Source: Escherichia phage JLBYU60. Taken from it: DNA of 44,804 bases. Below the pieces are notes generated by a model that was given only the letters and a program-made list of their open reading frames with translations, was not told the DNA's origin and did no database searches. A program made the translations under genes and the position numbers. Numbering within the stretch: position 1 is the stretch's first letter; each line of letters begins with the position of its first letter. Positions 9,865 to 24,651 of this stretch are shown piece by piece. Location of the stretch: sequence record NC_073052.1, one strand, 5' to 3'.

Positions 9865-10286
9865 TGAGCAATACCGCAATCCGCAAAGCGCTTAACAGCG
9901 TGGTTGAAGAGTTATCGGCAAGCCTGAGCACAAGCCAGCGTCCGATTAGGGTTAACTGGGAGAACGTGAGCGGCGACCACGCAAACGGCAGCGGTGTCTA
10001 CCTGGAGCCGTACCTGCTACCGGCCCCGACCCAGTTTGTGGGCTTACAGCAGAAGGGTCGGATCTATGCTGGCGTATATCAGGTTGCCGTGGTGTTTCCC
10101 GCAGGAACTGGAACACAGTACGCGAGCGAACTGGCGGACGCCATCGCTACGTCTGATAAGTGGCTGGCGGTGAAGATTTCCGGTGCGTCATTTCAGCTTC
10201 AGGACGCGCCATACACCAGTTCAGTGATTGAAGACGTTGATCGCGCCCGCATCGTGGTTACAGTACCCTACACCTGTTGCGCCTGA
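9864..10286 (+). CDS. Putative tail terminator / tail completion protein
   Basis: 140 aa, start overlapping the upstream stop (ATGA); position immediately before the major tail protein. Confidence 0.5.
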   Translation: MSNTAIRKALNSVVEELSASLSTSQRPIRVNWENVSGDHANGSGVYLEPYLLPAPTQFVGLQQKGRIYAGVYQVAVVFPAGTGTQYASELADAIATSDKWLAVKISGASFQLQDAPYTSSVIEDVDRARIVVTVPYTCCA

Positions 10287-12203: not shown

Positions 12204-14846
12204 ATGGCAGATCAGGCAGCAGGCATCACGCTAAAGGCTGATGTTGCACAAATCAGAACGGCAAATACTGTGCTGGACTCCTTCGCACAGAAATCCGAGA
12301 ACACAGAAAACAAGGTTAAGAAATTAAACGACACCCTCGGCAAATCCAAAAAGGTGACGAGTGACGCCGCGGGCGGAATGGAAAAGCTGGCAAACGAATC
12401 GCAGCGCGCCGCCGATGGCATGACGAAACAGGAGCGACTCGCCAACAGGTTAGGCATGTCGACTAAAAACCTGGGCTTTGCCTCGCGTAACGCCGCATTC
12501 CAGTTACAGGATATCGCAGTTACGCTTGAGATGGGTATGCCGGTACACCGCGTTATGCTTCAGCAGTTACCGCAGCTAACCGGCGCATTTGGCGGACTAG
12601 GTAACACTCTGCGTTATGTTGCTGGCTTCCTCGGTCCAGTTGGGATCGGCCTTGCTGCGGTAACGGCAACGTTAGGCGTGGGCGTAGCAATTACGTCCCG
12701 AGCAGAGAACCAGGTAGCGGCGCTTAATAAGACGCTGGCACTTTCCGGTAACATTTCCGGCCTGACGGCAAACCAGATCCTGGTGCTATCCGAGAACGCC
12801 GAGCGCATGGGCGGGTCATTCCGCAAGACGCGTGACACAATCCAGGCGCTGGCGGCGGCGGGTGTGAAAGCTGGTGGTGACTTCGGCGCATTGGCTAAGG
12901 TAGTTAATGACTTTGCGAAGGTGTCCAGCCAGCCGATCGAGGATGTGGTAGCGGCGGTGGCGAAGCTGTCAACCGACCCCGTTGGCGGACTGCGTGCGCT
13001 GGCGGATAAGTATCACGTCGTAAACGAAGCGCAGATCCAGCAGGTACAGTCGCTCGTTGATGCGGGTCGTGAGACAGACGCAGTTGCGCTGGCTAACAAA
13101 ACAGCCGCTGCGTCGTTCACCAGCATGACCAATGAGATCAAGGAGAACATGGGTACGCTTGAGCGATCTATGAACGTCGTCACATCGGCAGCCAAATCAA
13201 TGTGGGATGCCATCCTGGATGTGGGCCGCGCGCAGTCCTCCAATGAATCCGAGATGAAAGCGCGCGAATCACTGCAGCGGCTGACCACGGCTTACTATGC
13301 CGAGATGAAAGCGGTAAACGCTGCCGGTGGGGTAATGACTGAAGCGCAGAAAGCACGTATTAACATGCTTTACAGCGAACTGGTCGCCCAGGAAAAAGTG
13401 GTGGCGTCGCTCACCCTGCGTAACCGTGCTGAGCGAGACAACGCCCGCGCCGCAGACGAATCCGCAAAGGCGAACGAGGAGGCCAACCGCACTGCCCGTG
13501 ACCGCGCCGCGTTCGAGAAGGAATACGCCACCAACGCTAAGAAGCGCGCCGACGAGATCGCCCGCCTCAATTTGCTGAATAAGCGCGGCGTTATTGATGA
13601 GAAAGAACTAGCCGAGGCGGTGAAGCAGGTAAACGAGCGGTACAAAGACCCAGCCCCGAAAAAGGCCGCGGCTGTTCGCGTGGATGCCGGTATGAAAATG
13701 CTGGAAGTCGCACGGAGCGAACTGGCCCAGCTTCGAGAATCCGGCAAGCAGATCGAAGCCAACGCGTCTACGCAGACCCGCACGCAACGCGCTCAAGCGG
13801 CCTTAAACAAGCTGATCGCCGACAATGAGCAGTTAATCGCTGCGAGCAAAGAAAGAGCGCTAACGGCAGCAGAAAAGCAGCAATTAGTCGAGTTCGGGCG
13901 CGTGAAGGAAGTCCGCGAGCAGATCGTCGAAGAAGCCAAATTGCTGGATGCGAAAGAGCAGCAGGTTAAGGCGCACGCGCAGATCGATGCCTTCGTTAAG
14001 AACCAGAACGCCGAACTAAAAGCCACCGCGGCGGGCTATGCGCTTTCCACTCGCGAAGCGGCTAACCTGCGCGAAGAATTACAGCTGATTGACCGCCTTA
14101 AGCGCGTTGGTGCTAACGATACCGATATTGACCTGGCGGTGTCTAAGCTGCGCGAAGTGCAGGAAGCACAGACCGGTGCTAACGCCTCGCTATGGGATGG
14201 CTTCAGCCGCGGGCTTAAGGATAGCGTGGATGAAATGGGTAACGGCTATACGCAGATGGCGTCACTCACAAAATTCACGTTCGGCGCTATGCAGGACACG
14301 ATGAACGAGTTTTTCGAGACTGGCAAGCTGAACGCAAAGGATATGGTTAAGTCCATCCTGAGCGAATTAATCAAGCTGGCTACCTCGCAGGCGTTCAAGT
14401 CCATCGTTAGCGCTTTCGGTGGTGACGGCGGCAAAAACGGATTGTTCGGCGCTATCTTTTCCGGCCTCACTAAGAATGCGGACGGCGGAGCGTACGCAGG
14501 GGGCAATCTCGCGGCCTATTCGGGGAAGGTGGTAAGCCAGCCAACCTTTTTCAGTTATGGCGTCCAGGCGTTCGCTAAGGGCGCAGGATTGATGGGCGAG
14601 GCTGGTCCAGAGGCCATCATGCCGCTGAAGCGCGGGCCGGACGGGAAACTGGGCGTTGCCGCGTCTGGCGCAGGCGGTGGTATGGTCGTGACGACTAACG
14701 TTTACACGGGGACCGGTAAAACGGATACCAGTGTCAGCGGGCCGGATCCCCGTACCGCGCAGGCGTTCGGCAAGCAAATCACCGAGGCGGTGAAGGCCGA
14801 GATCGTGAAGGCGACGAAACCGGGTGGTGTACTTTACAAACGATGA
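12204..14846 (+). CDS. Tail tape measure protein
   Basis: 880 aa, long A/Q/E/K-rich coiled-coil central region, glycine-rich C-terminal part; RBS AAGGGGA; lies between chaperone and minor tail genes. Confidence 0.85.
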   Translation: MADQAAGITLKADVAQIRTANTVLDSFAQKSENTENKVKKLNDTLGKSKKVTSDAAGGMEKLANESQRAADGMTKQERLANRLGMSTKNLGFASRNAAFQLQDIAVTLEMGMPVHRVMLQQLPQLTGAFGGLGNTLRYVAGFLGPVGIGLAAVTATLGVGVAITSRAENQVAALNKTLALSGNISGLTANQILVLSENAERMGGSFRKTRDTIQALAAAGVKAGGDFGALAKVVNDFAKVSSQPIEDVVAAVAKLSTDPVGGLRALADKYHVVNEAQIQQVQSLVDAGRETDAVALANKTAAASFTSMTNEIKENMGTLERSMNVVTSAAKSMWDAILDVGRAQSSNESEMKARESLQRLTTAYYAEMKAVNAAGGVMTEAQKARINMLYSELVAQEKVVASLTLRNRAERDNARAADESAKANEEANRTARDRAAFEKEYATNAKKRADEIARLNLLNKRGVIDEKELAEAVKQVNERYKDPAPKKAAAVRVDAGMKMLEVARSELAQLRESGKQIEANASTQTRTQRAQAALNKLIADNEQLIAASKERALTAAEKQQLVEFGRVKEVREQIVEEAKLLDAKEQQVKAHAQIDAFVKNQNAELKATAAGYALSTREAANLREELQLIDRLKRVGANDTDIDLAVSKLREVQEAQTGANASLWDGFSRGLKDSVDEMGNGYTQMASLTKFTFGAMQDTMNEFFETGKLNAKDMVKSILSELIKLATSQAFKSIVSAFGGDGGKNGLFGAIFSGLTKNADGGAYAGGNLAAYSGKVVSQPTFFSYGVQAFAKGAGLMGEAGPEAIMPLKRGPDGKLGVAASGAGGGMVVTTNVYTGTGKTDTSVSGPDPRTAQAFGKQITEAVKAEIVKATKPGGVLYKR

Positions 14847-14880
14847 TAAAATGGCCCTCACTACAACGTGGGGGCTTTTT

Positions 14881-15480
14881 ATGTCACAAGGTACAATCAC
14901 ACTAACGAAAGGAAGTAAGACCGTCACGGGCGCGGGAACGGCGTTCCTTAGCGAGATCGGGAAGGTACTCGTATTCGCCCGCATCGACGGCAACGACTAC
15001 ACCGGCAAAATTGCGGCATTCAACTCGAACACGGTCATTACTCTGAAAGATAACTGGGCTGGGCCAACGAAATCCGGTGCGACATATGAGCTAATCGAAG
15101 CACACGACCCGCGATCAAACGAATGGCCCTATTACTGGCACATGCAATTGCAGGGCGGTGGCGACGTGCAGTTAGCTTTCCGGTCGGAGGAATTGCAATT
15201 CGGTAATGGCTACGGACAGAACATCGCGGACGGCCCGAACGCCGAAACGAAACAGTTCCCCGTGCAATTCGTCGGGCTGACTACGGACAAGTGGTGCAAC
15301 CCTAAACTGGTTTACAACTTCCTTCGCGGGCACTTCGTCAAGCCGTTTGTCGTCACCGCGCCGGATGGCGAAACAGGTTTATTCGTGGTCGAGCGTTCGA
15401 GCTTGTCGTACACGGACAACGGACACCTCACGGCAACCGTATCCGCCACCCTTAAGACTGCTATTGGATTCGTAAGATGA
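14881..15480 (+). CDS. Minor tail protein (lambda gpM-like C-terminal domain)
   Basis: 199 aa; C-terminal FGNGYGQ...FVKPFVVTAPDGETG resembles lambda M (FGDGYSQ...); N-terminal ~25 aa resemble the N-terminus of the tail fibre at 22364. Confidence 0.65.
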   Translation: MSQGTITLTKGSKTVTGAGTAFLSEIGKVLVFARIDGNDYTGKIAAFNSNTVITLKDNWAGPTKSGATYELIEAHDPRSNEWPYYWHMQLQGGGDVQLAFRSEELQFGNGYGQNIADGPNAETKQFPVQFVGLTTDKWCNPKLVYNFLRGHFVKPFVVTAPDGETGLFVVERSSLSYTDNGHLTATVSATLKTAIGFVR

Positions 15481-16265
15481 ATAAACTTTATCGCGAGGCG
15501 ACGCGCTTTGACCCATCGGGTCGCGTTCGCCTGATTCACATTGACGCGCAGGACGTGGAGCCAGGCGACGGTGCGATCGGCGCGGGCCATCACTATTTCC
15601 ACTACTGCTTTATTCCGCACACTGCCGAGGATATTGCTGCCGCCGGTGGTGACGAGGACAAGCTAAAACCTAAATCCATCTTCTTCGGCGGGCAGGAGTT
15701 CGAATTTTGGCCCTTCGATTTGTCCGGCCTCAACTTCTCCACATCAACGGCAGCAGAACCGCAGCTGACTATCGTTGATATTGGCGGCATAATCACCCGG
15801 CTATCATTGAATCACGACCAGCTACTGGGCGCGAAGGTTGAAATAATCGACACGTTCGCGAAGTTCCTGGACAACGGGCCGGATCCAGACCCAACGCAAA
15901 AACGTGTCCAGGAGTTTTACATCGACTCGCAGGTCGGGCGCAATCCGGGCAAGCAAATTACCTTCGCACTATCCTCGCCTGCGGATATGGAAGGGCAGGT
16001 CGTTCCCCGTCGCCAAATCATGAATATGTGCGAATGGGCGCTCAACGGGAAGTACGCCAGCGGGGACGGGTGCACCTGGAACCTTGCGAGGCCCGGTATC
16101 AAGTATTACGACGAGCGAGGTAATGAAGTCATTGCGATGAATATGGACCGATGCGGCGGCTGTTTGTCTGACTGTTATCTTCGATTTGGGCAAGGGCTTG
16201 CGGACCCTAAAGCGGCGGTGCTGGACTTCGGCGGCTTTCCGGGGTCCAGATTAATTAAGGGGTAG
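15477..16265 (+). CDS. Minor tail protein (lambda gpL-like)
   Basis: 262 aa; C-terminal cysteine cluster CEWAL...DGCTWN...DRCGGCLSDC matching the Fe-S-binding cysteines of lambda gpL; gene order M-L-K-I-J. Confidence 0.8.
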   Translation: MNKLYREATRFDPSGRVRLIHIDAQDVEPGDGAIGAGHHYFHYCFIPHTAEDIAAAGGDEDKLKPKSIFFGGQEFEFWPFDLSGLNFSTSTAAEPQLTIVDIGGIITRLSLNHDQLLGAKVEIIDTFAKFLDNGPDPDPTQKRVQEFYIDSQVGRNPGKQITFALSSPADMEGQVVPRRQIMNMCEWALNGKYASGDGCTWNLARPGIKYYDERGNEVIAMNMDRCGGCLSDCYLRFGQGLADPKAAVLDFGGFPGSRLIKG

Positions 16266-16267
16266 TT

Positions 16268-17008
16268 ATGTTAACGAAAAAGGTTAAAAGCGATATCGCC
16301 GCACACGTTGCGGCGTGTCTGCCGGAAGAAGCCTGTGGCCTGGTTGTCATGGTGGGTCGTAAGCAAGTGTTCGTCCCATGTCTGAACGTATTCGAAGACC
16401 CGACCGGCGTGCGCTCCCGCAAAGACGCTTTTACGATTAGTGATATGGCCTGGATGGATGCCGAGGATATGGGCGACGTCGTGCGCGTAGTCCACTCACA
16501 CCCAGGTCAGCGCGAGTTAACCCCCTCACTGGGCGACGTTAACGGATGCAACGGCAGCGGCGTAGTGTGGACCATCACTAACGAATATGGCGACTTTATT
16601 GAGATTGACCCGGAAGACCCGCCGCTGGTTGGTCGCCGATTTGTTCTCGGAATTACGGATTGTTATGGCCTCGTTATGGACTGGCACAAAAAGCAGGGAG
16701 TAAATTTGCCAGACTTCCGCGTGCCGTACAACTGGTGGGAGACCGGGGAGAACCTGTACATGGATAACTGGTACGGTGCAGGCTTCAGGGAATGCGAGGA
16801 GAATACGCCTGGGGCGATGGTCATCATGCAGATTAGCGCGCCAGTGCCTAACCATGCCGGAATCTACCTTCCGGGCAACCAACTACTACACCACATCTAC
16901 GGCAGCCTGTCGAGCGTGGTCCCCTTCCGGGCGGGATTTTTCCGCGACAATGTGGTTAAATGGGTCCGTCATAAAGACCTACCGGGGAATATCACAGAAT
17001 GGCAATGA
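16268..17008 (+). CDS. Tail assembly protein (lambda gpK-like, JAB/MPN + NlpC/P60)
   Basis: JAMM motif VVHSHPGQRELTPSLGD and downstream catalytic-Cys region DCYGLV typical of gpK. Confidence 0.8.
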   Translation: MLTKKVKSDIAAHVAACLPEEACGLVVMVGRKQVFVPCLNVFEDPTGVRSRKDAFTISDMAWMDAEDMGDVVRVVHSHPGQRELTPSLGDVNGCNGSGVVWTITNEYGDFIEIDPEDPPLVGRRFVLGITDCYGLVMDWHKKQGVNLPDFRVPYNWWETGENLYMDNWYGAGFRECEENTPGAMVIMQISAPVPNHAGIYLPGNQLLHHIYGSLSSVVPFRAGFFRDNVVKWVRHKDLPGNITEWQ

Positions 17009-17616
17009 CAACGTTTAAATTGTACGGCGTCTTAGGGCGTCGATTCGGTAAAGTGCATAAGCTGGATTGCTTCACTCCGGGCGAAGGAATCACCGGCTTG
17101 TGTGTGAAGTTGCCTGGGTTACAAGACTTTTTAATGTCGGCCCACCTGGACAACATGATGTTCAAGGTGCGCAAAGGCGACCACACAATGACCGGCTATG
17201 ATGAGCTAGGAGAGTTCCACGGCAACCGCGTCGTTACCATCGCGCCGGTTATGACTGGCGCAAAAAGGGGGCTGGGCCAATTGCTGGCAGGTGTCGCGAT
17301 CGTAGTGGCGTCGTTCTATACGGGCGGACTTGCTACTGCCGCTTTCGGGGCTTCGGCTGCAACCGCTGCCGCTATCGGTACGGCGACGTTTTCGTTCGGT
17401 ATGTCGATGGCGCTGGGTGGCGTTATGCAATTGCTGTCGCCACAACCGAAAGGATTGCAGACAAGGCAGGACGTGGATAACAAGGCGTCGTATGCGTTCG
17501 GCGGCCCAGTAAACACGACCGCGCAAGGCACAGCACTTGGTGTATTATGGGGCGAGCGCGAGATCGGCGGCGCTATTATTTCAGCCGGAATCGTAACCGA
17601 GGACTTGAACGAATGA
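16999..17616 (+). CDS. Tail assembly protein (lambda gpI-like)
   Basis: 205 aa; glycine/alanine-rich hydrophobic C-terminal region; position between gpK-like and gpJ-like genes. Confidence 0.7.
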   Translation: MAMTTFKLYGVLGRRFGKVHKLDCFTPGEGITGLCVKLPGLQDFLMSAHLDNMMFKVRKGDHTMTGYDELGEFHGNRVVTIAPVMTGAKRGLGQLLAGVAIVVASFYTGGLATAAFGASAATAAAIGTATFSFGMSMALGGVMQLLSPQPKGLQTRQDVDNKASYAFGGPVNTTAQGTALGVLWGEREIGGAIISAGIVTEDLNE

Positions 17617-20600
17617 CGATTATCTACGACGTCACAGGGCATAAAGGCGGCGGCGGCAAACAGCACACCCCACAGGAGACGCCCGATAGCCTGCATTCGC
17701 TGGCTAAAATCCGCATCTTGCTTGCACTGGGCGAGGGTGAATTCGAAAGTATTACCAGCGCCAGCGAATTGCGGCAGCGAGTATATCTGGATGGAACGCC
17801 GATCCAGAACGCGGACTTGTCCGAAAACTTCCCCGGCGCGCGAGTGGAGTTCCGCCCAGGCACACAGCACCAGGACGTGATCCACGGATTTTCAGCGGTG
17901 GAAAGTGAGCAATCCGTCGGTGTAAAACTGGAAAACGGCACGCCGTGGGTGCGCCAGATTAATGACACCAGTTTGGACGCCGTGCGCATTCGCATCGGCA
18001 TTCCGGCCTTGTACACTAACGAAGATAATGGCGACCTGGTGGGCGGGCGCATCGACTATAAGATAGTTGTGTATACGGATAACGCCGACCCGCGTGAGTT
18101 CAGATTCGCCGCCGTTGGTAAAACAATGTCGCTGTATGAGCGCGACCACCGCATCGAATTACCGTCGAACGTGAATACCGGCTGGCGCGTGGAGGTGCAC
18201 CGCATAACGGCAGACTCCACATCGGCGAAAGTGGTTAATGATATCCGGGTGCAGTCCATCACTGAGATTATTGACGCCCGCCTGCGTTACCCGCTAACCG
18301 CGCTGTTGTTTGTGGAGTTCGACGCCAAAGCGTTCCAGAACATCCCGCGCGTGTCCATTAAGTGCAAAGGCCGTAAAGTTCTAATACCGAACAACTACGA
18401 CCCGATTAATCATACCTATTCCGGGGACTGGGACGGCACGTTTAAACGCGCATGGACGGATAACCCTGCGTGGCACTGGTACGATATTTGTATTACTGAA
18501 CGCTTCGGCCTCGGCCGGCGTATCAAACCGCAAATGTTAAACCGGTACGCGCTCTACCAGATTGCGCAGCGCTGCGATCAGTTGGTCAGCGACGGCAACG
18601 GTGGTCGAGAAATCCGCTTTAAGAATGATATGTACATCCAGTCGCAGACAGACGCCTGGACCGTGCTTAAGGATTTGGCTGCCATCTTCGCCGGAATGAC
18701 CTGGTGGGGTAACCAGATGTTGAATATTGTCAGTGACCAACCGGTCGCAGCAGTGTCGCACACTATCACCAACGCCTCGGTAATTGATGGGCGATTCGAC
18801 TACGCATCTGGTAGCCAGAAAACGCGCTATTCCACATTCGCGGTAGCATACGGCAATCCGAAAAACCACTATGAAGATGCTATCGCAACGGGGCAACGTG
18901 TCGAACTGGTACGCCGCCATAAGATTAACCGTCTTGATATTACGGCGATCGGCTGTACGCGTGAATCTGAAGCGCAACGCCGCGGGCACTGGGCGCTAAT
19001 TTCCAACCAGCTTGACCAGCAAGTTAGCTTTAAGGTTGGCATGGAGGGACTTTTCTTTATTCCGGGTAGCGTAGTCGCGATCGCCGATACAAACATTTCT
19101 GGCGGCTTCGAGACACGCGGCGGTCGCCTGTTGACAGATCCCGGCACGCGTACCGTGCTGAACACAGACAGCGAAATCACGTTCCGCCCAGGTGATAAAT
19201 TCCTGGTACGCACCGATAGCGGTAATGTGGAGACTCGCGAGATCGCCAGCGTCAACGGCAACAAGGTTACGCTAAAAACCGCACTGGACGCCGACCCTAT
19301 TCCGGACCAGCCGTTTTGCGTTGATGGCGACGATATCCAGTTGCAGAAGTTCCGCATCACCGATCTGGAATATGACGACTCTACGAGCACTTTCTCGGTG
19401 CGCGGGATTGAATACAACGATAGCAAATATGATGCCGTTGATAATGGCGCGCGCCTAGACCCGGGCATCTTTACGCAAGTGCCTGACGGCGTAATGAAGG
19501 GGCCGGAATCCGTGACCATCACCCCGTCGCAGATTTCATCGCAAGGACAGCTAATCACCAACGTGGATATTGTTTTCCCGCCGGTGAAGGACGCCGTGGT
19601 GTATGAAATCCAGTGGCGACGCACCAGCTTGCAGAATATGGAAATCCAGTGGGGTAACGACTGGGTGAATATCCCGCGCACGGCATCGAACGGTGCGCAC
19701 ATCCCTAACGTGTTCTCAGGTAACTACCAGGCACGCGTCCGCGCAATTGGCATGGGCGAAATCTCGTCACCGTGGGTGTCTTCCGCAATCACGCCAGTTG
19801 AAGGTCGCCTCGGCGGTCTTAACGCGCCTATCATCACCAACGCGATTTCGGGCCTCCACCAGATCTTGTGGAAGTGGAACCACAACAACGCCGCTACGGA
19901 TATTTCGTACACCGAGCTTGAAGTGCGCAAGACCGGTGAGACTGAATGGAAATTCCTTACCAACGTCCCATATCCGGGGGCGGAGTATGCGCAAACATCG
20001 CTGGAGTTCGGAATTTACCAGCAGTTGCGCGCCCGTGTAGCGGATAAAATCGGCAACCTGTCGGACTGGTCGGCCCCGTTTGAAGGGCAGGTGAGTGACA
20101 AAGTTGACGAGTACATGAAGGGGCTTGATGACGAGTTCTTGACTTCCGAGGATGGTAAACGCTTCCAGGAAGCAATCAACACGATCCCGCAGGGTATTTA
20201 CGAGGCGATGCTCACCGATGCGCAGCAATTGTTCAACGCCCGCGCCGAGTACAAGGGTATTTATGCGGAAATCTCGGTCGCGTATAACGTGGCGGCGGAC
20301 GCCCACAAGGCGGTCGCTCAACTGGAGACGTTGATCGGCACGCGACTTGATGACGCGGAAGCTGCGATCCACACGTTGCAGACCGCGCAGAGCACACAGG
20401 AACAAGCGTTCGCCCAGTATCAGCAAACTGTTGCCGCTAAGTTCGGGGAACAGGAAGCCGCCATCCAGCAGGTACAAACGGCAACCGCAGACGTGGCGGG
20501 AGCGCTGGCGGAATATAAGACCCAGGTCGCGACACAGTTTGGTCAGCAGTCCGCCGCTATCGAGCAGAAGATGACGTCCTCGTTTAACCATGCTGGTGGC

Positions 20601-21032
20601 AGCGCCACGTACAGTCTTAAGGCTGGCGTGACGTATAACGGGACTTACTATGACGCCGGTATGCAGCTTTCAGTTGTTACGTCAGGCAACGCAGTTAAAT
20701 CTCGTATCGCGTTCAAAGCCGACCAGTTCTATATCATGCACCCGTCAAATGGGTCGCTTTCGTCCGCGTTTATCGTTGACGGCGGGCAGGTGTATATTGA
20801 CACGGCACGCATCAAGGACGCGTCAATCAACTTTGCACAGATCACGGACACGCTGCAATCGAATAACTACGACGGCAGTACGCGTGGTTGGCGCTTAGGG
20901 AAAGACGGAACGTTTATCAACCTGGGGACTGGAAGCGGCGGCGGGATGAAACAGACGAACACAAGAATCAGCGTGAAGGACGGAAACGGCGTTCTCCGCG
21001 TGCAGATTGGTGAGCTTACTGGTAGCTGGTAG
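17613..21032 (+). CDS. Central tail fibre / host specificity protein (lambda gpJ-like)
   Basis: 1140 aa from ATG 17613 (overlaps gpI-like stop, ATGA); long stretch YSGDWDGTFKRAWTDNPAWHWYDICITERFGLGRRI...YQIAQRCDQLVSDGNGG closely parallels lambda J (YSGIWDGTFK...MAWCLWDML...GQYCDQSVPDGFGG), as recalled from memory. Confidence 0.9.
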   Translation: MTIIYDVTGHKGGGGKQHTPQETPDSLHSLAKIRILLALGEGEFESITSASELRQRVYLDGTPIQNADLSENFPGARVEFRPGTQHQDVIHGFSAVESEQSVGVKLENGTPWVRQINDTSLDAVRIRIGIPALYTNEDNGDLVGGRIDYKIVVYTDNADPREFRFAAVGKTMSLYERDHRIELPSNVNTGWRVEVHRITADSTSAKVVNDIRVQSITEIIDARLRYPLTALLFVEFDAKAFQNIPRVSIKCKGRKVLIPNNYDPINHTYSGDWDGTFKRAWTDNPAWHWYDICITERFGLGRRIKPQMLNRYALYQIAQRCDQLVSDGNGGREIRFKNDMYIQSQTDAWTVLKDLAAIFAGMTWWGNQMLNIVSDQPVAAVSHTITNASVIDGRFDYASGSQKTRYSTFAVAYGNPKNHYEDAIATGQRVELVRRHKINRLDITAIGCTRESEAQRRGHWALISNQLDQQVSFKVGMEGLFFIPGSVVAIADTNISGGFETRGGRLLTDPGTRTVLNTDSEITFRPGDKFLVRTDSGNVETREIASVNGNKVTLKTALDADPIPDQPFCVDGDDIQLQKFRITDLEYDDSTSTFSVRGIEYNDSKYDAVDNGARLDPGIFTQVPDGVMKGPESVTITPSQISSQGQLITNVDIVFPPVKDAVVYEIQWRRTSLQNMEIQWGNDWVNIPRTASNGAHIPNVFSGNYQARVRAIGMGEISSPWVSSAITPVEGRLGGLNAPIITNAISGLHQILWKWNHNNAATDISYTELEVRKTGETEWKFLTNVPYPGAEYAQTSLEFGIYQQLRARVADKIGNLSDWSAPFEGQVSDKVDEYMKGLDDEFLTSEDGKRFQEAINTIPQGIYEAMLTDAQQLFNARAEYKGIYAEISVAYNVAADAHKAVAQLETLIGTRLDDAEAAIHTLQTAQSTQEQAFAQYQQTVAAKFGEQEAAIQQVQTATADVAGALAEYKTQVATQFGQQSAAIEQKMTSSFNHAGGSATYSLKAGVTYNGTYYDAGMQLSVVTSGNAVKSRIAFKADQFYIMHPSNGSLSSAFIVDGGQVYIDTARIKDASINFAQITDTLQSNNYDGSTRGWRLGKDGTFINLGTGSGGGMKQTNTRISVKDGNGVLRVQIGELTGSW

Positions 21033-21068: not shown

Positions 21069-21371
21069 ATGGCATTCGGTATCGCAACGTGGGACGCGCA
21101 AGGACGCCCAAACAACTACGGCATTAAACCGGTAAGCGTGATCGGAAGGATTCATCTTGCGGAAGGACAAAAATCAGGCGCATGGTCATTCCCTGTACCG
21201 GCGGGGATGAAGGTCGGATACGTGGTCGCACTGGATAAAGGCGCGGTCGGGCCAGGACGCAGAATCACCGCCAGCGGGAACACTATCACGGTTTCCGCAG
21301 CAAGTGAGGTTGGTGGCGGGGTTTACTCCGCATCTGAATGTGACGTTATTGTTTTTGTGGAGCGAGCATAA
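21069..21371 (+). CDS. Hypothetical tail-associated protein
   Basis: 100-aa ORF after the gpJ terminator with plausible RBS; no recognisable motif. Confidence 0.45.
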   Translation: MAFGIATWDAQGRPNNYGIKPVSVIGRIHLAEGQKSGAWSFPVPAGMKVGYVVALDKGAVGPGRRITASGNTITVSAASEVGGGVYSASECDVIVFVERA

Positions 21372-22045
21372 TGGCTAATTACGGCGCGTTGATTGACTTA
21401 CCAAACGGCAACCCGTTTATCACGCCAGAATCGACGCCGTTTTGTCTATTCCGCCGTGTGGTTGTTGGGTCTTCGGCTAACGGCACTGCGCAGTCGGCGG
21501 CTGCCGATATTAATTTGGGTGGTGACTACCCTGCAATAGCGTTTGTGAAAACTACGCACACCGCCCAGCCGACCGTAGTAGGGTCTTCTCGCGTTGGTAA
21601 TGTGGTGAAGGTGAGCGCCAGCAATCCATTCGGGCAGGGCTTCACGATGACGGCTTACATCTTTGCTATATTCCCACAGACCCTTCCGCGGTGGGGCTTC
21701 GCTATTTGGGATAAGACGGGGAAGCTAGTGCTTACTAATGAGAGTCGCGTACTAAGTGATTTAGTTACCGTCGGATCGCCAGGCGCTAACGGGGGGATTA
21801 ACATTGACCAGACGCTAAACGGCAGCTACGCCGTCGCTCCGGGCATATTGGGGTCTACGCTGATCCGGTTTTTTGTGCAGGGCCAGCCGCAAGTAATATC
21901 GGTAACGGCGTACACGGGGGCCAGATTTGATGGGTCGCGAACGCGTATATCGGCAGCGTCGTCGGGGAACGCCACGGGGGATGTGGTGGGGTATACTAAC
22001 AACGGCAACGCGATTATGGCGATTAACACCGCCAATTATGATTGA
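21371..22045 (+). CDS. Hypothetical tail-associated protein
   Basis: 224 aa, start overlaps upstream stop (TAATG); between gpJ and the side tail fibre. Confidence 0.45.
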   Translation: MANYGALIDLPNGNPFITPESTPFCLFRRVVVGSSANGTAQSAAADINLGGDYPAIAFVKTTHTAQPTVVGSSRVGNVVKVSASNPFGQGFTMTAYIFAIFPQTLPRWGFAIWDKTGKLVLTNESRVLSDLVTVGSPGANGGINIDQTLNGSYAVAPGILGSTLIRFFVQGQPQVISVTAYTGARFDGSRTRISAASSGNATGDVVGYTNNGNAIMAINTANYD

Positions 22046-22046
22046 A

Positions 22047-22069
22047 GAAAGCCCCGAAAGGGGCTTATT
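22047..22069. terminator. Bidirectional terminator between convergent genes
   Basis: AAAGCCCC-gaaa-GGGGCTT with A-run upstream and T-rich tract downstream; between + gene ending 22045 and - lipoprotein gene ending 22065. Confidence 0.65.
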
Positions 22070-22283
22070 TGCAGGTTGTGCTTTTGAAGTGGTCTACAGA
22101 CACGTACTGGAAGCCGAACGGATAGCCCGCCCTTAGCATTTTATGCCCGGAGAAGTCTGCAACACCATACACAGGGACCGCATAATCCATACCGCCAGTG
22201 TGGTATGTCGCGTCGCAGATTTTTGACGGCATACCGGCACAACCTGACAGAAGAACCGCACAAATCATAATTAAAGTTTTCAT
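22065..22283 (-). CDS. Small lipoprotein, candidate superinfection-exclusion protein (Cor/Llp-like)
   Basis: 72 aa from ATG 22283 with RBS AGGAGATGA; signal peptide MKTLIMICAVLLSGC with lipobox LSG-C; antisense gene embedded among tail fibre genes with its own sigma70-like promoter. Confidence 0.6.
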   Translation of the reverse strand: MKTLIMICAVLLSGCAGMPSKICDATYHTGGMDYAVPVYGVADFSGHKMLRAGYPFGFQYVSVDHFKSTTCK

Positions 22284-22363: not shown

Positions 22364-24049
22364 ATGGCAGCGGGTACACTATCCGTAACGAATAACAGCA
22401 AGGCGGTTGTCGGGGTAGGCACGACGTTTACCGCGTTTAAAGCTGGCGACTTCTTAACGCTGGTGGTAGGACAAGTCCCCTACACCGTGGCAATCGCGTC
22501 CATTGAAAGCGCAACCGCGCTTACGCTGGTGCTGCCGTTCGACGGCCCAACGGCAACCGGCCTCGCGTGGGATGGCGTTAAGCGCGATACCATGTCGCTG
22601 GCAACGATGGGCGTTACCGTACAGGCTCAAAAAGCATTGCGCTTGATGATTGCAGATGAAAACAACTGGCGTGCAATCTTCGGCGACGCTGAAGAAATCA
22701 CGGTCACGCTGCCGAACGGGCAGGTGATGCAGGGTATGTCATGGGGCTACCTGTCGCAGTTGATGAAACAGATCGACCCAGTGGAAATGCGCGACCTGCA
22801 ACAACAAGCCGCCGCATCGGAAGCAGCCGCGCAAGGATTTCGCAATGAGGCAGAAGGCTTCAAAAACGACACCAACACCATCAAGACGCAGACCAACCAG
22901 ATTAAGACGGACACACAGGCTATCCACGACGCCACCAATACCATCAAGACGCAGACCAACCAGATTAAGACGGATACGCAGGCCATCAAGGACCAGACCA
23001 ACCAAATTAAGACGGATACCGGAGTTATTCGCGACCAGGCCAACACCGCGAAGACGGACGCGCAAGCCGCCCGCGATGCCGCGCAGGTATACAGGGACGA
23101 GGCCGAACAATTCAAAAATGAGGTTGACCCGTCTCAATACGCTAAGGTAAGTAACAACCTCACCGACCTCACCGACAAAACCGCGGCACGGCAGACTCTC
23201 AACGCAATCGGCGTCGGGGATTATGGCATCGGAGGCGGCGCACCTGGCGGAAGTTGGGACACAGCAGATGATAGCACCCTGATCGCTACAAACACAGGGT
23301 CCCCACTAGGTGACGTCTCCGTAGCGGGTGTGCATGTTAAGTTTGCGCAAAACTATGCTGTACAGTTCGCGGCGCGTCAAAGCCGATTTTTCTGGCGAAC
23401 TAAAGAGAATGGGGCGCTACAGAATTGGTGCGAAGCGGTGAAGCCGGGGGACTACGGACTAGGGATTGAAAACTCAGTCCCCCCGCCGAATACGCAGGCT
23501 TGCTTTTTCTCGCAGTCGATCGGAACACCGACTTGGGCACCTGCAAACGGCGCAGGATTTCAATCGGCCTACTCGCCCTCTCGTGTCGCACAGCTTATGG
23601 TCGGCGCGTTGCCAGCGCTCTACTATCGTTGGAACACCTCCGGCAACGCGCAAGTCTCCGCTTCGACGGCGCCGTGGTCACGGGTGCAAGATGCCGGTAC
23701 GTCTGACGCCCGTGTGAAGGATATTAAGGGAAATTTAAATGTGGAGGCGGCGCTGGATAACATCAACCGCCTTGAGTTTAAGTTATTCCGGTATACGTTT
23801 GACGAACCGGAGCGATCTACGCGACGCGGAATCATTGCACAGCAAGCGGCAACGGTTGACCGGGAATATGTGCACGACCACGAAGTTCCGGGGATGATGA
23901 CGTTAGACTTAAACCCGCTTGTCGCGGATTGCCTGGCGGCTATTAAAGCGTTAAGAGCGCGTGACGAGGCGAACAAGGCCGAGATTGCAGAACTGAAAGC
24001 TGCCGTAGCGGATTTGAAAGCCGCGGTCGCGGCGCTGACTAAAGCATAA
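22364..24049 (+). CDS. Side tail fibre with C-terminal intramolecular chaperone (peptidase S74-like) domain
   Basis: 561 aa; tandem 21-aa repeats (NTIKTQTNQIKTDTQAI...); C-terminal region DARVKDIKG...LEFKLFRYTFD...GIIAQQAATVD typical of auto-cleaving chaperone domains of phage fibres/endosialidases; terminator downstream. Confidence 0.75.
   Translation: MAAGTLSVTNNSKAVVGVGTTFTAFKAGDFLTLVVGQVPYTVAIASIESATALTLVLPFDGPTATGLAWDGVKRDTMSLATMGVTVQAQKALRLMIADENNWRAIFGDAEEITVTLPNGQVMQGMSWGYLSQLMKQIDPVEMRDLQQQAAASEAAAQGFRNEAEGFKNDTNTIKTQTNQIKTDTQAIHDATNTIKTQTNQIKTDTQAIKDQTNQIKTDTGVIRDQANTAKTDAQAARDAAQVYRDEAEQFKNEVDPSQYAKVSNNLTDLTDKTAARQTLNAIGVGDYGIGGGAPGGSWDTADDSTLIATNTGSPLGDVSVAGVHVKFAQNYAVQFAARQSRFFWRTKENGALQNWCEAVKPGDYGLGIENSVPPPNTQACFFSQSIGTPTWAPANGAGFQSAYSPSRVAQLMVGALPALYYRWNTSGNAQVSASTAPWSRVQDAGTSDARVKDIKGNLNVEAALDNINRLEFKLFRYTFDEPERSTRRGIIAQQAATVDREYVHDHEVPGMMTLDLNPLVADCLAAIKALRARDEANKAEIAELKAAVADLKAAVAALTKA
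22877..23020 (+). repeat. In-frame tandem 63-bp repeats within tail fibre gene
   Basis: About 2.3 copies of accatcaagacgcagaccaaccagattaagacgga... (21-aa unit TIKTQTNQIKTDTQAI). Confidence 0.8.
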
Positions 24050-24055
24050 CGAGAA

Positions 24056-24078
24056 GGGGCCGCACGGCCCCTTTTTTA
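24056..24078 (+). terminator. Rho-independent terminator after tail fibre gene
   Basis: GGGGCC-gcac-GGCCCC followed by TTTTTT. Confidence 0.8.
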
Positions 24079-24651
24079 GTTTGAGTTTTCCCAGTCCATT
24101 TTGCGCCGCACCAGCGGGCTTTCGTAATATTCCTTGCCTTCCACTTCCACTAAGGGCCAGTCGTTCACTATAACGTATGGCTCCGCGATATCCTCGATCA
24201 CGCCGTGCGCACTATGTTGCCCGAAATCTACGCCCACCAGAATAACACCGGCAACTCGACGAGTGAGATACTCGCGAGCGCAACGCGCCTCTACCAGTCC
24301 GCGACGGATGCCGCTGGTGGCTTTGACCTCATATGTCCATACGGCATCAATCATGTGTTCTTTGTAGTCGGGGCCGGACTTAACCTTGCGCTTGCCGACC
24401 ATGATAATATCGCCGCGGTCGATAGTGTTAGCGCTAAACAGGCCAGTACGCATTAGCAAACCTTGTGGAATACAGCTACGCCCTCCCGCCTGCCCTTCGA
24501 GGTACATGCCTGCAAACATCTCGCCCAGTACACCGACAAGACGGCTTTGCTTGCACGCGTCAGACTTGTATCGCCACTGGTCAAACTCGATGCTTGCTAT
24601 CATTGCCGCCAGGTGGAATTGTTTACCCGATATTTCATATTCGCCGTACAT
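24076..24651 (-). CDS. Hypothetical protein, possible PD-(D/E)xK-type nuclease
   Basis: 191 aa; weak D...EVK signature (GDIIMVG...WTYEVKATSG); first gene of the minus-strand DNA metabolism block. Confidence 0.4.
   Translation of the reverse strand: MYGEYEISGKQFHLAAMIASIEFDQWRYKSDACKQSRLVGVLGEMFAGMYLEGQAGGRSCIPQGLLMRTGLFSANTIDRGDIIMVGKRKVKSGPDYKEHMIDAVWTYEVKATSGIRRGLVEARCAREYLTRRVAGVILVGVDFGQHSAHGVIEDIAEPYVIVNDWPLVEVEGKEYYESPLVRRKMDWENSN

What the first reader, a model, noticed from the sequence alone, without database searches (positions are those of the whole stretch)
22364..24049. Side tail fibre with repeat array, self-cleaving chaperone domain and an N-terminus shared with the gpM-like protein
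The fibre has tandem 21-aa repeats and a C-terminal intramolecular chaperone-like domain (DARVKDIKG...). Its first ~25 residues (MAAGTLSVTNNSKAVVGVGTTFTAF) closely resemble the N-terminus of the gpM-like protein at 14881 (MSQGTITLTKGSKTVTGAGTAFLSE). A shared N-terminal module on two tail proteins suggests a common docking site on the tail tip or a modular exchange event, relevant to host-range engineering.
Basis: seen in the sequence. Interest (0 to 1): 0.45.

Follow-up and report, generated by a model that had tools for sequence, protein, structure and literature searches.

The report
Dhillonvirus side fibre; anchor domain duplicated

Summary
ORF 22364-24049 is the lateral tail fibre of a Dhillonvirus; one window protein is 100% identical to a phage JLBYU60 protein on a 44,804-bp contig.

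- **Repeats:** the "21-aa repeats" are two 19/21-identical copies (63-bp duplication). They lie inside a heptad coiled-coil shaft (residues 139-253).
- **C-terminal domain:** it is a Peptidase_S74 intramolecular chaperone with the S447/K452 dyad.
- **Shared N-terminus:** the similarity to the gpM-like protein covers about 72 residues, not 25 (35% identity, E 5e-7; 0 of 5000 shuffles reach its score).
- **What the module is:** it belongs to a large family with no Pfam or NCBIfam model. In F-type pyocins the homologous domain is the solved side-fibre anchor.

The "common docking site" reading is not supported.
- Sister phages and N15/ES18-type phages have the same fibre N-domain but a plain gpM.
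- The copy on the distal tail protein (DTP) resembles N15-type fibres more than its own phage's fibre.
- It evolves about 7-fold faster than the DTP core and does not co-vary with the fibre.

The best reading is a lineage-specific capture of an anchor-type domain, giving a decorated DTP. Its role is unresolved. Modular exchange is well supported. The fibre is an ordinary member of a known kind.

The parts
22364..24049 (+). Lateral (side) tail fibre gene, 561 aa, 60.1 kDa precursor
   Evidence: ORF with AAGAGGA ribosome-binding site. phrog_1980 tail fiber E 2.8e-127. DNA 91-95% identical to the fibres of phages slur05, slur06 and Dru_SM5. Mass.
22364..22579 (+). Fibre N-terminal module (aa 1-72), the presumed virion-anchor domain
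   Evidence: 35% identical to DTP residues 1-70. A profile of N-domains matches the solved F2-pyocin side-fibre N-domain (25ve_A residues 5-76) at E 5e-7. 90-100% conserved in most Dhillonvirus fibres (81% between the most divergent). dN/dS 0.09. The AF2 model is poor here (pLDDT 38-64), so the fold is not confirmed.
22580..22777 (+). Stem/neck (aa 73-138): two short helices and a small beta unit
   Evidence: AF2 secondary structure H84-96, H99-106, E112-115, E121-125, H127-135 at low pLDDT. No indels in 120 relatives. dN/dS 0.05.
22778..23122 (+). Alpha-helical coiled-coil shaft (aa 139-253) with heptad periodicity
   Evidence: Heptad register with F/I/A/Y at position 1 and T/A at position 5. 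A single AF2 helix 139-253 with pLDDT up to 93. HMMER match to the T7 gp17 region 169-267, E 0.005. Weak SMC/Rad50 coiled-coil hits. Indels in Dhillonvirus relatives within this region are 7, 14 or 21 aa with one 6-aa exception.
22866..23002 (+). 63-bp tandem duplication (2.2 copies), equal to two 21-aa units of three heptads
   Evidence: Tandem Repeats Finder: period 63, 85% matches, score 211. Units 169-189 and 190-210 are 19/21 identical.
23207..23701 (+). Exchangeable distal receptor-binding region (aa ~282-446)
   Evidence: Homology among Dhillonvirus fibres ends at about aa 275-300. Aa 282-446 are 89.7% identical to P0018, a fibre from a 53-kb contig with a different N-terminus. The AF2 monomer model is poor here (pLDDT <50). 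Published work on other Dhillonvirus fibres describes O-antigen binding (PMC11990801).
23702..24049 (+). C-terminal intramolecular chaperone / Peptidase_S74 domain (aa 447-561, 12.6 kDa), catalytic S447 and K452 in the motif SDARVK
   Evidence: Pfam PF13884 E 7e-8, above the gathering score. S447 and K452 conserved. AF2 pLDDT 77-92. Foldseek match to the MyRF ICA domain 7dc3 at E 5e-4, TM 0.60-0.64; endosialidase chaperone 3gw6 only weakly.
14881..15480 (+). Distal tail protein (gpM-like), 199 aa: N-module 1-72, linker 73-83, tail-tube-fold core 84-199
   Evidence: Pfam Phage_min_tail matches 86-192 at E 2.3e-11. About 95% identical to PDB 23gd_B 'Distal tail protein gp20' of phage Oekolampad. 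The core matches the T1 DTP (9l9p_H, E 3.8e-6) and lambda gpM (8iyk_E) by Foldseek. GGGGG ribosome-binding site before the ATG at 14881.
14881..15096 (+). DTP N-terminal module (aa 1-72), a homologue of fibre N-domains
   Evidence: Matches tail-fibre PHROGs 17834, 28473, 1980 and 2712 at E 1e-11 to 5e-17. Matches the F2-pyocin side fibre at E 1e-4. 43% identical to the HK225 fibre N-domain against 30-35% to the resident fibre. Absent from the nearest DTP relatives P0005-P0010. dN/dS 0.21 against 0.03 for the core.
17613..21032 (+). Central fibre / J-like tail tip protein, whose coiled-coil shaft is a candidate docking site for the side fibre
   Evidence: Matches 23gd_D 'J-like tail tip protein gp24'. 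Its C-terminal shaft is homologous to F2-pyocin central fibre residues 976-1187 at E 8e-19. Pfam FNIII-A_GpJ, Phage-tail_3 and Phage_Tail_Tip. An acidic motif, VDEYMKGLDDEFLTSEDG, at the shaft start is conserved in HK225 and L003. Docking there is inference only.

Best explanation
The ORF encodes the lateral tail fibre of a Dhillonvirus, a small E. coli siphophage. From N to C it contains five parts.

1. A ~72-residue beta-domain. It belongs to a very large family with no Pfam or NCBIfam model that heads the side fibres of Dhillonvirus, N15/HK022/ES18-type lambdoid phages and F-type pyocins. In the pyocins, solved structures show it is the OB-like anchor that fixes fibre trimers to the tail.
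2. A short stem.
3. A trimeric alpha-helical coiled-coil shaft of about 16 heptads. It contains a three-heptad (63-bp) duplication and changes length in relatives in 7-residue steps.
4. An exchangeable receptor-binding tip.
5. A Peptidase_S74 intramolecular chaperone. By analogy with endosialidase, it should drive trimer folding and then cut itself off at S447 using the S447/K452 dyad. That would leave a mature fibre of 446 residues (47.5 kDa) and release a 12.6-kDa fragment.

The gpM-like protein is the hexameric distal tail protein (DTP). In Dhillonviruses an extra copy of the same anchor-type domain has been fused in frame to the N-terminus of a lambda-gpM/T1-type tail-tube-fold core. I read this as a lineage-specific domain capture that produced a decorated ('evolved') DTP. 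It would display six copies of the domain around the tube-tip junction. I do not read it as evidence that the two proteins dock at one site.

Basis of each step:
- Shown: the homology, the domain boundaries, the fusion, the lack of co-variation, and the fast evolution of the DTP copy.
- Inferred: trimerisation, autocleavage, O-antigen binding, and fibre attachment through the N-domain.
- The attachment site is most likely the J coiled-coil shaft or the tube-tip junction. The DTP copy is most likely a peripheral decoration.
For: Identity of the fibre:
- phrog_1980 E 2.8e-127.
- 91-95% DNA identity to Dhillonvirus fibres.
- The window's DTP is 100% identical to a phage JLBYU60 protein on a 44,804-bp contig.

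Coiled coil:
- Heptad register.
- AF2 helix 139-253, pLDDT up to 93.
- T7 gp17 region match.
- Indels in relatives are multiples of 7 aa.

Chaperone domain:
- Pfam above the gathering score.
- S447 and K452 conserved.
- Foldseek match to the MyRF ICA domain at E 5e-4.

N-module homology:
- BLASTP E 5e-7 and z = 14.6 against shuffles.
- Cross-hits of the DTP N-domain to four tail-fibre PHROGs.
- Profile match to the solved F2-pyocin side-fibre anchor at E 5e-7.
- That domain's docking role is described in PMC13455828, PMC12874032 and bioRxiv 10.64898/2026.02.24.707460.
- Family size: 3567 clusters at E<=1e-3. In about 120 of the 150 best hits the domain sits at residue 1 of a protein under 900 aa.

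Fusion rather than shared docking:
- The closest DTP relatives are 122-125 aa and start exactly at the core.
- One of them (L003) sits beside a fibre with the same N-domain.
- ES18 and HK225 have a plain gpM plus a fibre with the N-domain.
- The DTP copy is 43% identical to the HK225 fibre against 30-35% to its own phage's fibre.
- Pairwise identities show no co-variation between the DTP and fibre N-domains (r = 0.19), against r = 0.80 for DTP core versus fibre N-domain.
- dN/dS is 0.21 for the DTP N-domain, 0.03 for the DTP core and 0.09 for the fibre N-domain.

Against: - The fold of the N-module could not be confirmed. Both AF2 models are poor there (pLDDT <50-64).
- The fibre sequence alone does not reach the F2-pyocin chain; only the DTP copy and the profile do.
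- Cleavage, trimerisation and receptor are untested.
- The actual docking site in this phage is unknown. The part of the pyocin central fibre that holds the side fibres does not align with this J protein.
- The charges of the two domains are opposite in this phage: fibre N-domain pI 4.2, DTP N-domain pI 9.2. The domain is known to form rings in pyocins. A direct fibre-DTP contact therefore stays possible.
- The co-variation test used only 8 phages, and interface residues could be among the conserved ones.
- The solved Oekolampad tail tip (PDB 23gd) probably shows where the DTP N-domain sits. I could not read its coordinates or find its paper.
Confidence: 0.72

Rival explanations
1. Built-in docking collar. 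The six DTP N-domains and the N-domains of the fibre trimers pack side by side into one mixed ring at the tube-tip junction, for example 6 + 6. The DTP's copy would then be the fibre's attachment site.
For: - The two domains are homologous.
- The homologous pyocin domain forms a pseudo-sixfold ring by lateral contacts (PMC13455828).
- Twelve-membered collars hold the side fibres in Ur-lambda and T5 (PMC12617516).
- In this phage the two domains carry opposite charge, pI 4.2 against 9.2.
- Every Dhillonvirus DTP retrieved carries the N-domain (156 records), and all 8 genomes examined also carry a fibre gene with it.
Against: - L003, ES18 and HK225 have the same fibre N-domain with a plain gpM, so the DTP domain is not needed for attachment in relatives.
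- There is no co-variation: Pandora71 has a DTP N-domain 68% identical while its fibre N-domain is 100% identical.
- The DTP copy evolves faster than the fibre copy.
- The deposited Oekolampad tail-tip entry 23gd contains the DTP but no chain matching the fibre N-domain.
- In all three pyocin structures the domain binds the central-fibre shaft, not the DTP.
Confidence: 0.17
2. The DTP N-domain is a host-surface adhesin. It would act like the carbohydrate-binding decorations of 'evolved' Dits in Gram-positive phages, and would be unrelated to fibre attachment. Six weakly binding modules near the tail tip would help reversible adsorption.
For: - It evolves fast and in a mosaic pattern while staying under purifying selection (dN/dS 0.21; divergence hot spot at nt 120-180). 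This is typical of exposed, host-facing modules.
- The same domain occurs in 4-15 tandem copies in giant PKD-repeat proteins.
- It is basic, pI 9.2, which would suit binding to acidic LPS.
Against: - No carbohydrate-binding family matches.
- No ligand is known for any member of the family.
- The only characterised members bind protein, namely the central fibre.
- The DTP ring sits well above the receptor-binding tip.
Confidence: 0.1
3. The N-terminal similarity is a chance or compositional resemblance (G/T/S-rich beta strands), and the two proteins are unrelated.
For: The motif is short and rich in G, T, S and V. AF2 did not give a confident fold for either copy.
Against: - 0 of 5000 shuffles reach the observed score, z = 14.6, and both halves are significant on their own.
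- BLASTP E 5e-7.
- The DTP N-domain hits several independent fibre families at E as low as 5e-17.
- A two-sequence profile recovers thousands of fibre N-termini in register, positions 1-72 to 1-73.
Confidence: 0.01

Closest known systems
Dhillonvirus lateral tail fibres (for example RuthEpting/Bas85 Gp29, Oekolampad bas18_0027, slur05 fibre)
   Same: - Same gene position, after the receptor-binding-protein/Cor cassette.
- Same conserved N-terminal ~280 residues.
- Same architecture: an N-terminal coiled coil, a fibre tip and a C-terminal IMC domain, as described in PMC11990801.
- 91-95% DNA identity to slur05 and Dru_SM5.
[quoted passage not shown]
   Different: Only the allele of the distal tip differs. 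This tip is shared at about 90% identity with a non-Dhillonvirus contig. Shaft length differs by a few heptads.
F-type pyocin side fibres (PyoF13, PA0643/PA0646; PDB 25ve, 25vj)
   Same: The N-terminal ~75-residue domain is homologous (profile E 5e-7). The J-like central fibre is also homologous (E 4e-224, with shaft E 8e-19). In pyocins this domain anchors three fibre trimers.
   Different: - The distal parts are unrelated: the pyocins have an R-pyocin-like receptor-binding domain with separate chaperones, whereas here there is a self-cleaving IMC.
- The pyocin DTP is a plain 113-aa gpM-like protein with no N-domain.
- The pyocin docking segment of the central fibre has no alignable counterpart in this J protein.
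N15 gp25 / ES18 gp33 / HK225 gp25 tail fibres of lambdoid phages
   Same: Same N-terminal module (37-43% identical to the DTP copy). Same gene order: M-L-K-I-J, phrog_557, phrog_425, cor, fibre. ES18 gp33 is annotated as present in the virion.
   Different: These fibres are shorter (286-378 aa), lack the IMC domain and in HK225 have a separate assembly chaperone. Their gpM is plain (115 aa).
Decorated distal tail proteins (T5 pb9 with its OB-fold domain; 'evolved' Dits)
   Different: Here the extra domain is N-terminal and is a clear sequence homologue of a fibre anchor. I found no sequence similarity to pb9 and made no structural comparison.
Ur-lambda Stf and T5 p132 collars
   Same: Functional analogy: N-terminal or dedicated small domains form a ring round the tube/DTP junction and hold the side fibres.
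   Different: No sequence similarity: the N-domain profile does not hit any lambda or T5 chain at E<=1. The lambda domain is described as a six-stranded sheet plus helix of 94 residues.
Endosialidase, T5 pb1 and MyRF intramolecular chaperone (Peptidase_S74) domains
   Same: Pfam match, the S-D-x-R-x-K motif, the fold, a long C-terminal helix, and a position at the C-terminus of a trimeric fibre.
   Different: None found. Cleavage itself is untested.
T7 gp17 tail fibre
   Same: A region with FRNEAEGFKN-type heptads resembles the window's shaft (E 0.005, gp17 residues 169-267).
   Different: No detected similarity in the N-terminal or distal domains.

Membership tests
Peptidase_S74 / intramolecular chaperone (IMC) domain | Match to the Pfam PF13884 model above the gathering score | tested here: met
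   33.1 bits against a cut-off of 22, E 7e-8, residues 447-503.
Peptidase_S74 / intramolecular chaperone (IMC) domain | Catalytic Ser-Lys dyad in the motif S-D-x-R-x-K at the domain start | tested here: met
   S447-D-A-R-V-K452. S447 is conserved in at least 90% and K452 is invariant in 121 aligned homologues. That these residues are the dyad is from my own knowledge of endosialidase and T5 pb1.
Peptidase_S74 / intramolecular chaperone (IMC) domain | Fold of solved IMC/ICA domains | tested here: met
   AF2 pLDDT 77-92 for residues 451-560. Foldseek match to MyRF ICA 7dc3 at E 5e-4, probability 1.0, TM 0.60-0.64. Endosialidase chaperone 3gw6 matches only at E 0.24.
Peptidase_S74 / intramolecular chaperone (IMC) domain | Autoproteolytic release after trimer folding | not testable with these tools
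   Needs SDS-PAGE or mass spectrometry of virions. Predicted products are 47.5 and 12.6 kDa.
F-pyocin-type side-fibre N-terminal anchor domain | Sequence homology to the solved domain (25ve_A residues 5-76) | tested here: met
   Profile of nine DTP and fibre N-domains: E 5e-7. DTP alone: E 1e-4. The fibre alone does not reach it.
F-pyocin-type side-fibre N-terminal anchor domain | OB-like beta fold | tested here: inconclusive
   AF2 gives beta strands 30-56 in the fibre at pLDDT 38-64. The DTP N-domain has pLDDT <50. No usable model.
F-pyocin-type side-fibre N-terminal anchor domain | Located at the extreme N-terminus of a trimeric fibre, followed by a stem helix | tested here: met
   In the fibre the domain starts at M1 and helices 84-96 and 99-106 follow. 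The DTP copy has no stem, only an 11-residue linker.
F-pyocin-type side-fibre N-terminal anchor domain | Docks on the coiled-coil shaft of the central fibre | not testable with these tools
   J has a homologous shaft. The pyocin docking segment (about 950-961) is not alignable. No multimer prediction was available.
Lambda gpM-type distal tail protein (Phage_min_tail) | Pfam PF05939 match above the gathering score | tested here: met
   44.5 bits against 39, residues 86-192.
Lambda gpM-type distal tail protein (Phage_min_tail) | Tail-tube fold like solved DTPs | tested here: met
   Foldseek match to the T1 DTP 9l9p_H at E 3.8e-6 (TMt 0.69) and to lambda gpM 8iyk_E at E 1.3e-3 (TMt 0.68). About 95% identical to the solved 23gd_B.
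Lambda gpM-type distal tail protein (Phage_min_tail) | Gene lies between the tape measure and gpL | tested here: met
   Tape measure at 12204-14846, DTP at 14881-15480, Phage_tail_L at 15477-16265.
Ur-lambda Stf collar domain | Sequence similarity to the Stf N-terminal collar domain | tested here: not met
   Neither the single sequences nor the profile hit any lambda Stf chain at E<=1.
Trimeric alpha-helical coiled-coil fibre shaft (T7 gp17-like) | Heptad periodicity with hydrophobic or small residues at two core positions, in a continuous helix | tested here: met
   Register. AF2 helix 139-253. Indels within the shaft in Dhillonvirus relatives are multiples of 7 with one 6-aa exception. T7 gp17 match at E 0.005. 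Oligomeric state not tested.

The most novel reading that the evidence does not exclude
Dhillonviruses may have copied a side-fibre anchor domain onto their distal tail protein. Six DTP-borne and six fibre-borne copies would then co-assemble into one mixed collar. That would be a self-templated docking ring, a mode of side-fibre attachment not described for any phage. It would explain why the two domains carry opposite charge in this phage.
Probability: 0.15. Interest if true: 0.6.

Novelty: new member of a known kind. Interest (0 to 1): 0.3.

Why it matters
**Engineering.** The analysis gives concrete module boundaries. The anchor, stem and shaft (aa 1 to about 280) are conserved in Dhillonvirus fibres. 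The tip plus chaperone is a cassette that has already moved between phage groups.

**Structural biology.** A ~70-residue domain family of at least 3,500 clusters lacks a Pfam or NCBIfam model. It links F-pyocin side fibres, lambdoid and Dhillonvirus fibres and, unexpectedly, one lineage's distal tail protein. The same family also appears in tandem arrays in giant PKD-repeat proteins.

**What to check next.** A solved tail tip with this DTP already exists (PDB 23gd). It could show quickly whether the DTP's copy helps hold the fibres.

None of this overturns current understanding. The fibre itself is ordinary.

Tried and rejected
- **AF2 models.** AF2 on the DTP (11-sequence alignment) and on the fibre (121 sequences) gave unusable N-domain models (pLDDT <50-64). 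I could not compare the fold with the pyocin anchor or with T5 pb9.
- **Short homologue search.** A search with the fibre's first 95 residues returned only two fragments.
- **PDB 23gd.** I could not find the paper for the Oekolampad tail tip. The entry is also newer than the Foldseek library. Where its DTP N-domain sits remains unknown to me.
- **Phage T1.** No paper on the T1 tail tip (9l9p) was found.
- **Pyocin docking segment.** I tried to align it to this J protein. Only residues 976-1187 of the F2 chain align, and a focused search of J 802-909 found nothing in the pyocin chain.
- **Rejected: chance similarity**.
- **Rejected: lambda Stf-type collar domain**.
- **Rejected: an internal start producing a short DTP isoform.** There is no Met between the N-domain and the core.
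- **Rejected: recent duplication of the resident fibre's 5' end.** The DTP copy is closer to N15-type fibres.
- **Promoter and terminator scan.** The scan around the gene was at background level.
Full report
**What the window is.** The fibre DNA is 91-95% identical to the fibre genes of Escherichia phages slur05, slur06 and Dru_SM5. Its 5' half is 86-91% identical to many other Dhillonvirus fibre genes. The gpM-like protein is 100% identical to a protein of Escherichia phage JLBYU60, recorded on a contig of 44,804 bp, the size of the window. The surrounding genes follow a lambda-like tail module:
- tape measure, 12204-14846
- gpM-like protein, 14881-15480
- gpL, 15477-16265
- gpK-like JAB/NlpC protein, 16268-17008
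- a J-like central fibre ending at 21032
- two small proteins (phrog_557, phrog_425)
- a Cor exclusion gene on the minus strand
- the fibre

These assignments rest.

**Checking the observation.** The ORF at 22364-24049 is real. It has an AAGAGGA ribosome-binding site and matches phrog_1980 'tail fiber protein' end to end at E 2.8e-127.

Tandem Repeats Finder reports a 63-bp unit, 2.2 copies, 85% matches, at 22866-23002. In protein terms these are two 21-residue units (169-189 and 190-210) that are 19/21 identical, with a degenerate third. Written in sevens, the sequence from about 145 to 256 has a strict heptad pattern. F, I, A or Y occupies position 1 and T or A occupies position 5. The 21-residue repeat is therefore a three-heptad duplication inside a longer coiled coil.

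Further evidence for a coiled coil:
- AF2 predicts one continuous helix, 139-253, with pLDDT up to 93.
- The region resembles T7 gp17 residues 169-267 (E 0.005).
- It weakly resembles SMC/Rad50 coiled coils.
- In 120 homologues, indels relative to this protein within the shaft are 7, 14 or 21 residues in the Dhillonvirus fibres (one 6-residue exception), and residues 1-150 have essentially none (one 21-residue deletion starts at 150).

The C-terminal domain matches Pfam Peptidase_S74 above its gathering score (residues 447-503, E 7e-8). The motif S447-D-A-R-V-K452 is conserved: S447 in at least 90% of sequences and K452 in all. The modelled domain (pLDDT 77-92) matches the MyRF intramolecular chaperone auto-processing domain at E 5e-4 and TM 0.60-0.64. 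It matches the endosialidase chaperone 3gw6 only weakly.

**The shared N-terminus.** BLASTP aligns fibre residues 1-70 with residues 1-70 of the gpM-like protein at 35% identity, E 5e-7.
- The local alignment score is 96, against 26 +/- 4.8 for 5000 shuffles. None reaches it.
- Residues 1-25 and 26-75 are each significant on their own.
- The first 72 residues of the gpM-like protein match four tail-fibre PHROG families at E 1e-11 to 5e-17.

The similarity is real homology and spans a whole ~72-residue domain. The rest of the gpM-like protein (86-192) is a Pfam Phage_min_tail domain. By Foldseek its model matches the phage T1 DTP (9l9p_H, E 3.8e-6) and lambda gpM. The whole protein is about 95% identical to PDB chain 23gd_B, 'Distal tail protein gp20'. 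A tblastn search traces that chain to phage Oekolampad/Bas18.

**What the module is.**
- A profile of nine N-domains matches residues 5-76 of the solved F2-pyocin side fibre at E 5e-7. The DTP copy alone reaches it at E 1e-4.
- Three recent structural papers on F-type pyocins describe this domain as the attachment domain. Three side-fibre trimers dock by their N-terminal domains on a kinked, acidic stretch of the central fibre's coiled coil. [quoted passage not shown]
- PMC13455828 calls it OB-like and notes its resemblance to the decoration domain of the T5 DTP.
- No Pfam or NCBIfam model covers it.
- A two-sequence profile finds 3567 cluster representatives at E<=1e-3. In about 120 of the best 150 the domain sits at residues 1-73 of a protein under 900 aa. 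The few of these with a source name are called tail fibre or tail proteins.
- It heads the fibres of ES18 (gp33, 'present in virion'), HK225 and N15 gp25-type phages, which share the same downstream gene order.
- It also occurs in 4-15 tandem copies inside giant PKD-repeat proteins.

**Does the shared module mean a shared docking site?** The comparative evidence says no.
- The nearest relatives of the DTP core (57-67% identical) are 122-125 residues long and begin exactly where the core begins.
- One such relative lies on a 33-kb contig (L003). Its fibre begins with an N-domain clearly homologous to, and closely resembling, the window's.
- ES18 and HK225 likewise combine a plain gpM with a fibre that has the N-domain. 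The pyocin DTP is also plain.
- The fibre therefore attaches without any DTP N-domain in relatives.
- The DTP's copy is more similar to the HK225 fibre N-domain (43%) than to its own phage's fibre (30-35%). It is not a recent copy of the resident gene.
- Across eight Dhillonviruses, mean pairwise identity is 82% for the DTP N-domain, 95% for the DTP core and 92% for the fibre N-domain.
- Distances for the two N-domains are uncorrelated (r = 0.19). Distances for the DTP core and the fibre N-domain track each other (r = 0.80).
- Against the window, Pandora71 has a 99% identical DTP core and a 100% identical fibre N-domain, but a DTP N-domain only 68% identical.
- dN/dS is 0.21 for the DTP N-domain, 0.03 for the core and 0.09 for the fibre N-domain.

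The DTP copy is functional, but it is freer to change than either its own core or the fibre's anchor.

**Best explanation.** The fibre is a standard Dhillonvirus lateral fibre, made of anchor domain, stem, coiled-coil shaft, exchangeable tip and self-cleaving chaperone. Published BASEL work describes the same architecture and an O-antigen-binding role for other Dhillonvirus fibres (PMC11990801; PMC8594841). The DTP is a lineage-specific fusion of an anchor-type domain to a gpM core, that is, a decorated DTP.

What the six extra domains do is unresolved. I rank the possibilities as follows:
1. A peripheral decoration.
2. A mixed collar with the fibre N-domains. This is kept alive by the ring-forming habit of the domain and by the opposite charges in this phage (pI 4.2 against 9.2).
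3. A weak adhesin.

**Where the fibre docks.** This is also inferred. J has a coiled-coil shaft homologous to residues 976-1187 of the pyocin central fibre (E 8e-19). It has an acidic motif at the shaft start that is shared with HK225 and L003. The pyocin docking segment itself does not align.

**Modular exchange.**
- Homology among Dhillonvirus fibres ends at residues 275-300.
- Residues 243-561 are 92.8% identical to a fibre with an unrelated N-terminus on a 53-kb contig. The chaperone domain is 100% identical.
- Teewinot and Maverick carry truncated fibres.

**Limits.**
- Both AF2 models failed for the N-domain.
- I could not see the coordinates of 23gd or find its paper. That entry contains no chain matching the fibre, which is weak evidence against an ordered fibre-DTP collar.
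- Trimerisation, cleavage and receptor are untested.

**Verdict.** The fibre is an ordinary new member of a known kind. The DTP fusion is a modest, tidy example of domain capture, and a deposited structure could settle its role.

Noticed in passing
P0133, P0134, P0137, P0140, P0151 (proteins found with the N-domain profile; not in the window): The ~70-residue fibre-anchor domain also occurs as 4-15 tandem copies inside giant proteins of 1,000-2,900 aa. Sources name these 'PKD repeat protein' or 'putative baseplate assembly protein' (a cyanobacterium). No Pfam or NCBIfam model covers the domain. Some copies weakly hit Pfam Phage_attach.
   Followed up: partly
L004 (Pandora71) 10001-10237 compared with window 14881-15117: The DTP N-domain is a mosaic hot spot. 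Pandora71 is 99% identical to the window in the DTP core and 100% in the fibre N-domain, but only 68% in the DTP N-domain. Nucleotide identity falls to 55-72% at nt 120-240 of the gene, and dN/dS there is 0.42-0.69.
   Followed up: partly
window 23090-24049; P0018: Fibre residues 243-561 are 92.8% identical to a fibre from a 53-kb metagenomic contig whose N-terminus (MIYTTGTIAINGNTVTGTGTDF...) is different. The chaperone domain is 100% identical. This points to a recent swap of the tip-plus-chaperone cassette between phage groups.
   Followed up: partly
window about 20100-20160 (J residues about 830-850, numbered from the ATG at 17613): An acidic, Gly-containing motif at the start of the J coiled-coil shaft (VDEYMKGLDDEFLTSEDG) is conserved in HK225 (ADDYLGDIADDFLTSADG) and L003 (ADDYLNGFGDDLMSSEDG). 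All three phages have fibres with the N-domain. It recalls the acidic docking gap of the F7 pyocin central fibre, but it could not be aligned to the pyocin.
   Followed up: partly
window 21069-22283: The receptor-binding cassette after J is the N15/HK022/ES18 type: phrog_557, phrog_425 and a minus-strand Cor gene. Teewinot shares it. Oekolampad, Pandora71 and Haito instead carry a 321-aa protein (annotated DUF6453 in Pandora71) plus a small protein on the minus strand; Oekolampad's is the exclusion lipoprotein, and that phage uses LptD. The cassette is swapped within the genus.
   Followed up: no
window 14824-14881 and 17547-17613: Start codons. The GenBank protein for the DTP starts at the GTG at 14824 (218 aa). 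The ATG at 14881 has a GGGGG ribosome-binding site and gives the 199-aa protein used in PDB 23gd_B. Likewise, the longest J ORF starts at 17547, but the solved chain begins at its residue 23, MTIIYDV at 17613.
   Followed up: yes
L009 (Teewinot) 17487-18227; P0138 (phage Maverick): Some Dhillonviruses carry truncated fibre genes (246 aa and 171 aa) that keep only the anchor and proximal part. This suggests the fibre may not be essential on their isolation hosts.
   Followed up: no
window 24076-24651 (-): A 191-aa protein of unknown function (phrog_10558, E 8e-120) lies immediately downstream of the fibre, convergently transcribed. A 576-bp ORF is annotated at the same position in the six annotated Dhillonvirus loci fetched.
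   Followed up: no
window 22244-22271 (+): A sigma-70-like site (CTGACA-16-CATAAT, 10/12) lies about 90 nt upstream of the fibre start, inside the oppositely oriented cor gene. The scan as a whole was near background: 3 sites found against 1.5 expected.
   Followed up: no
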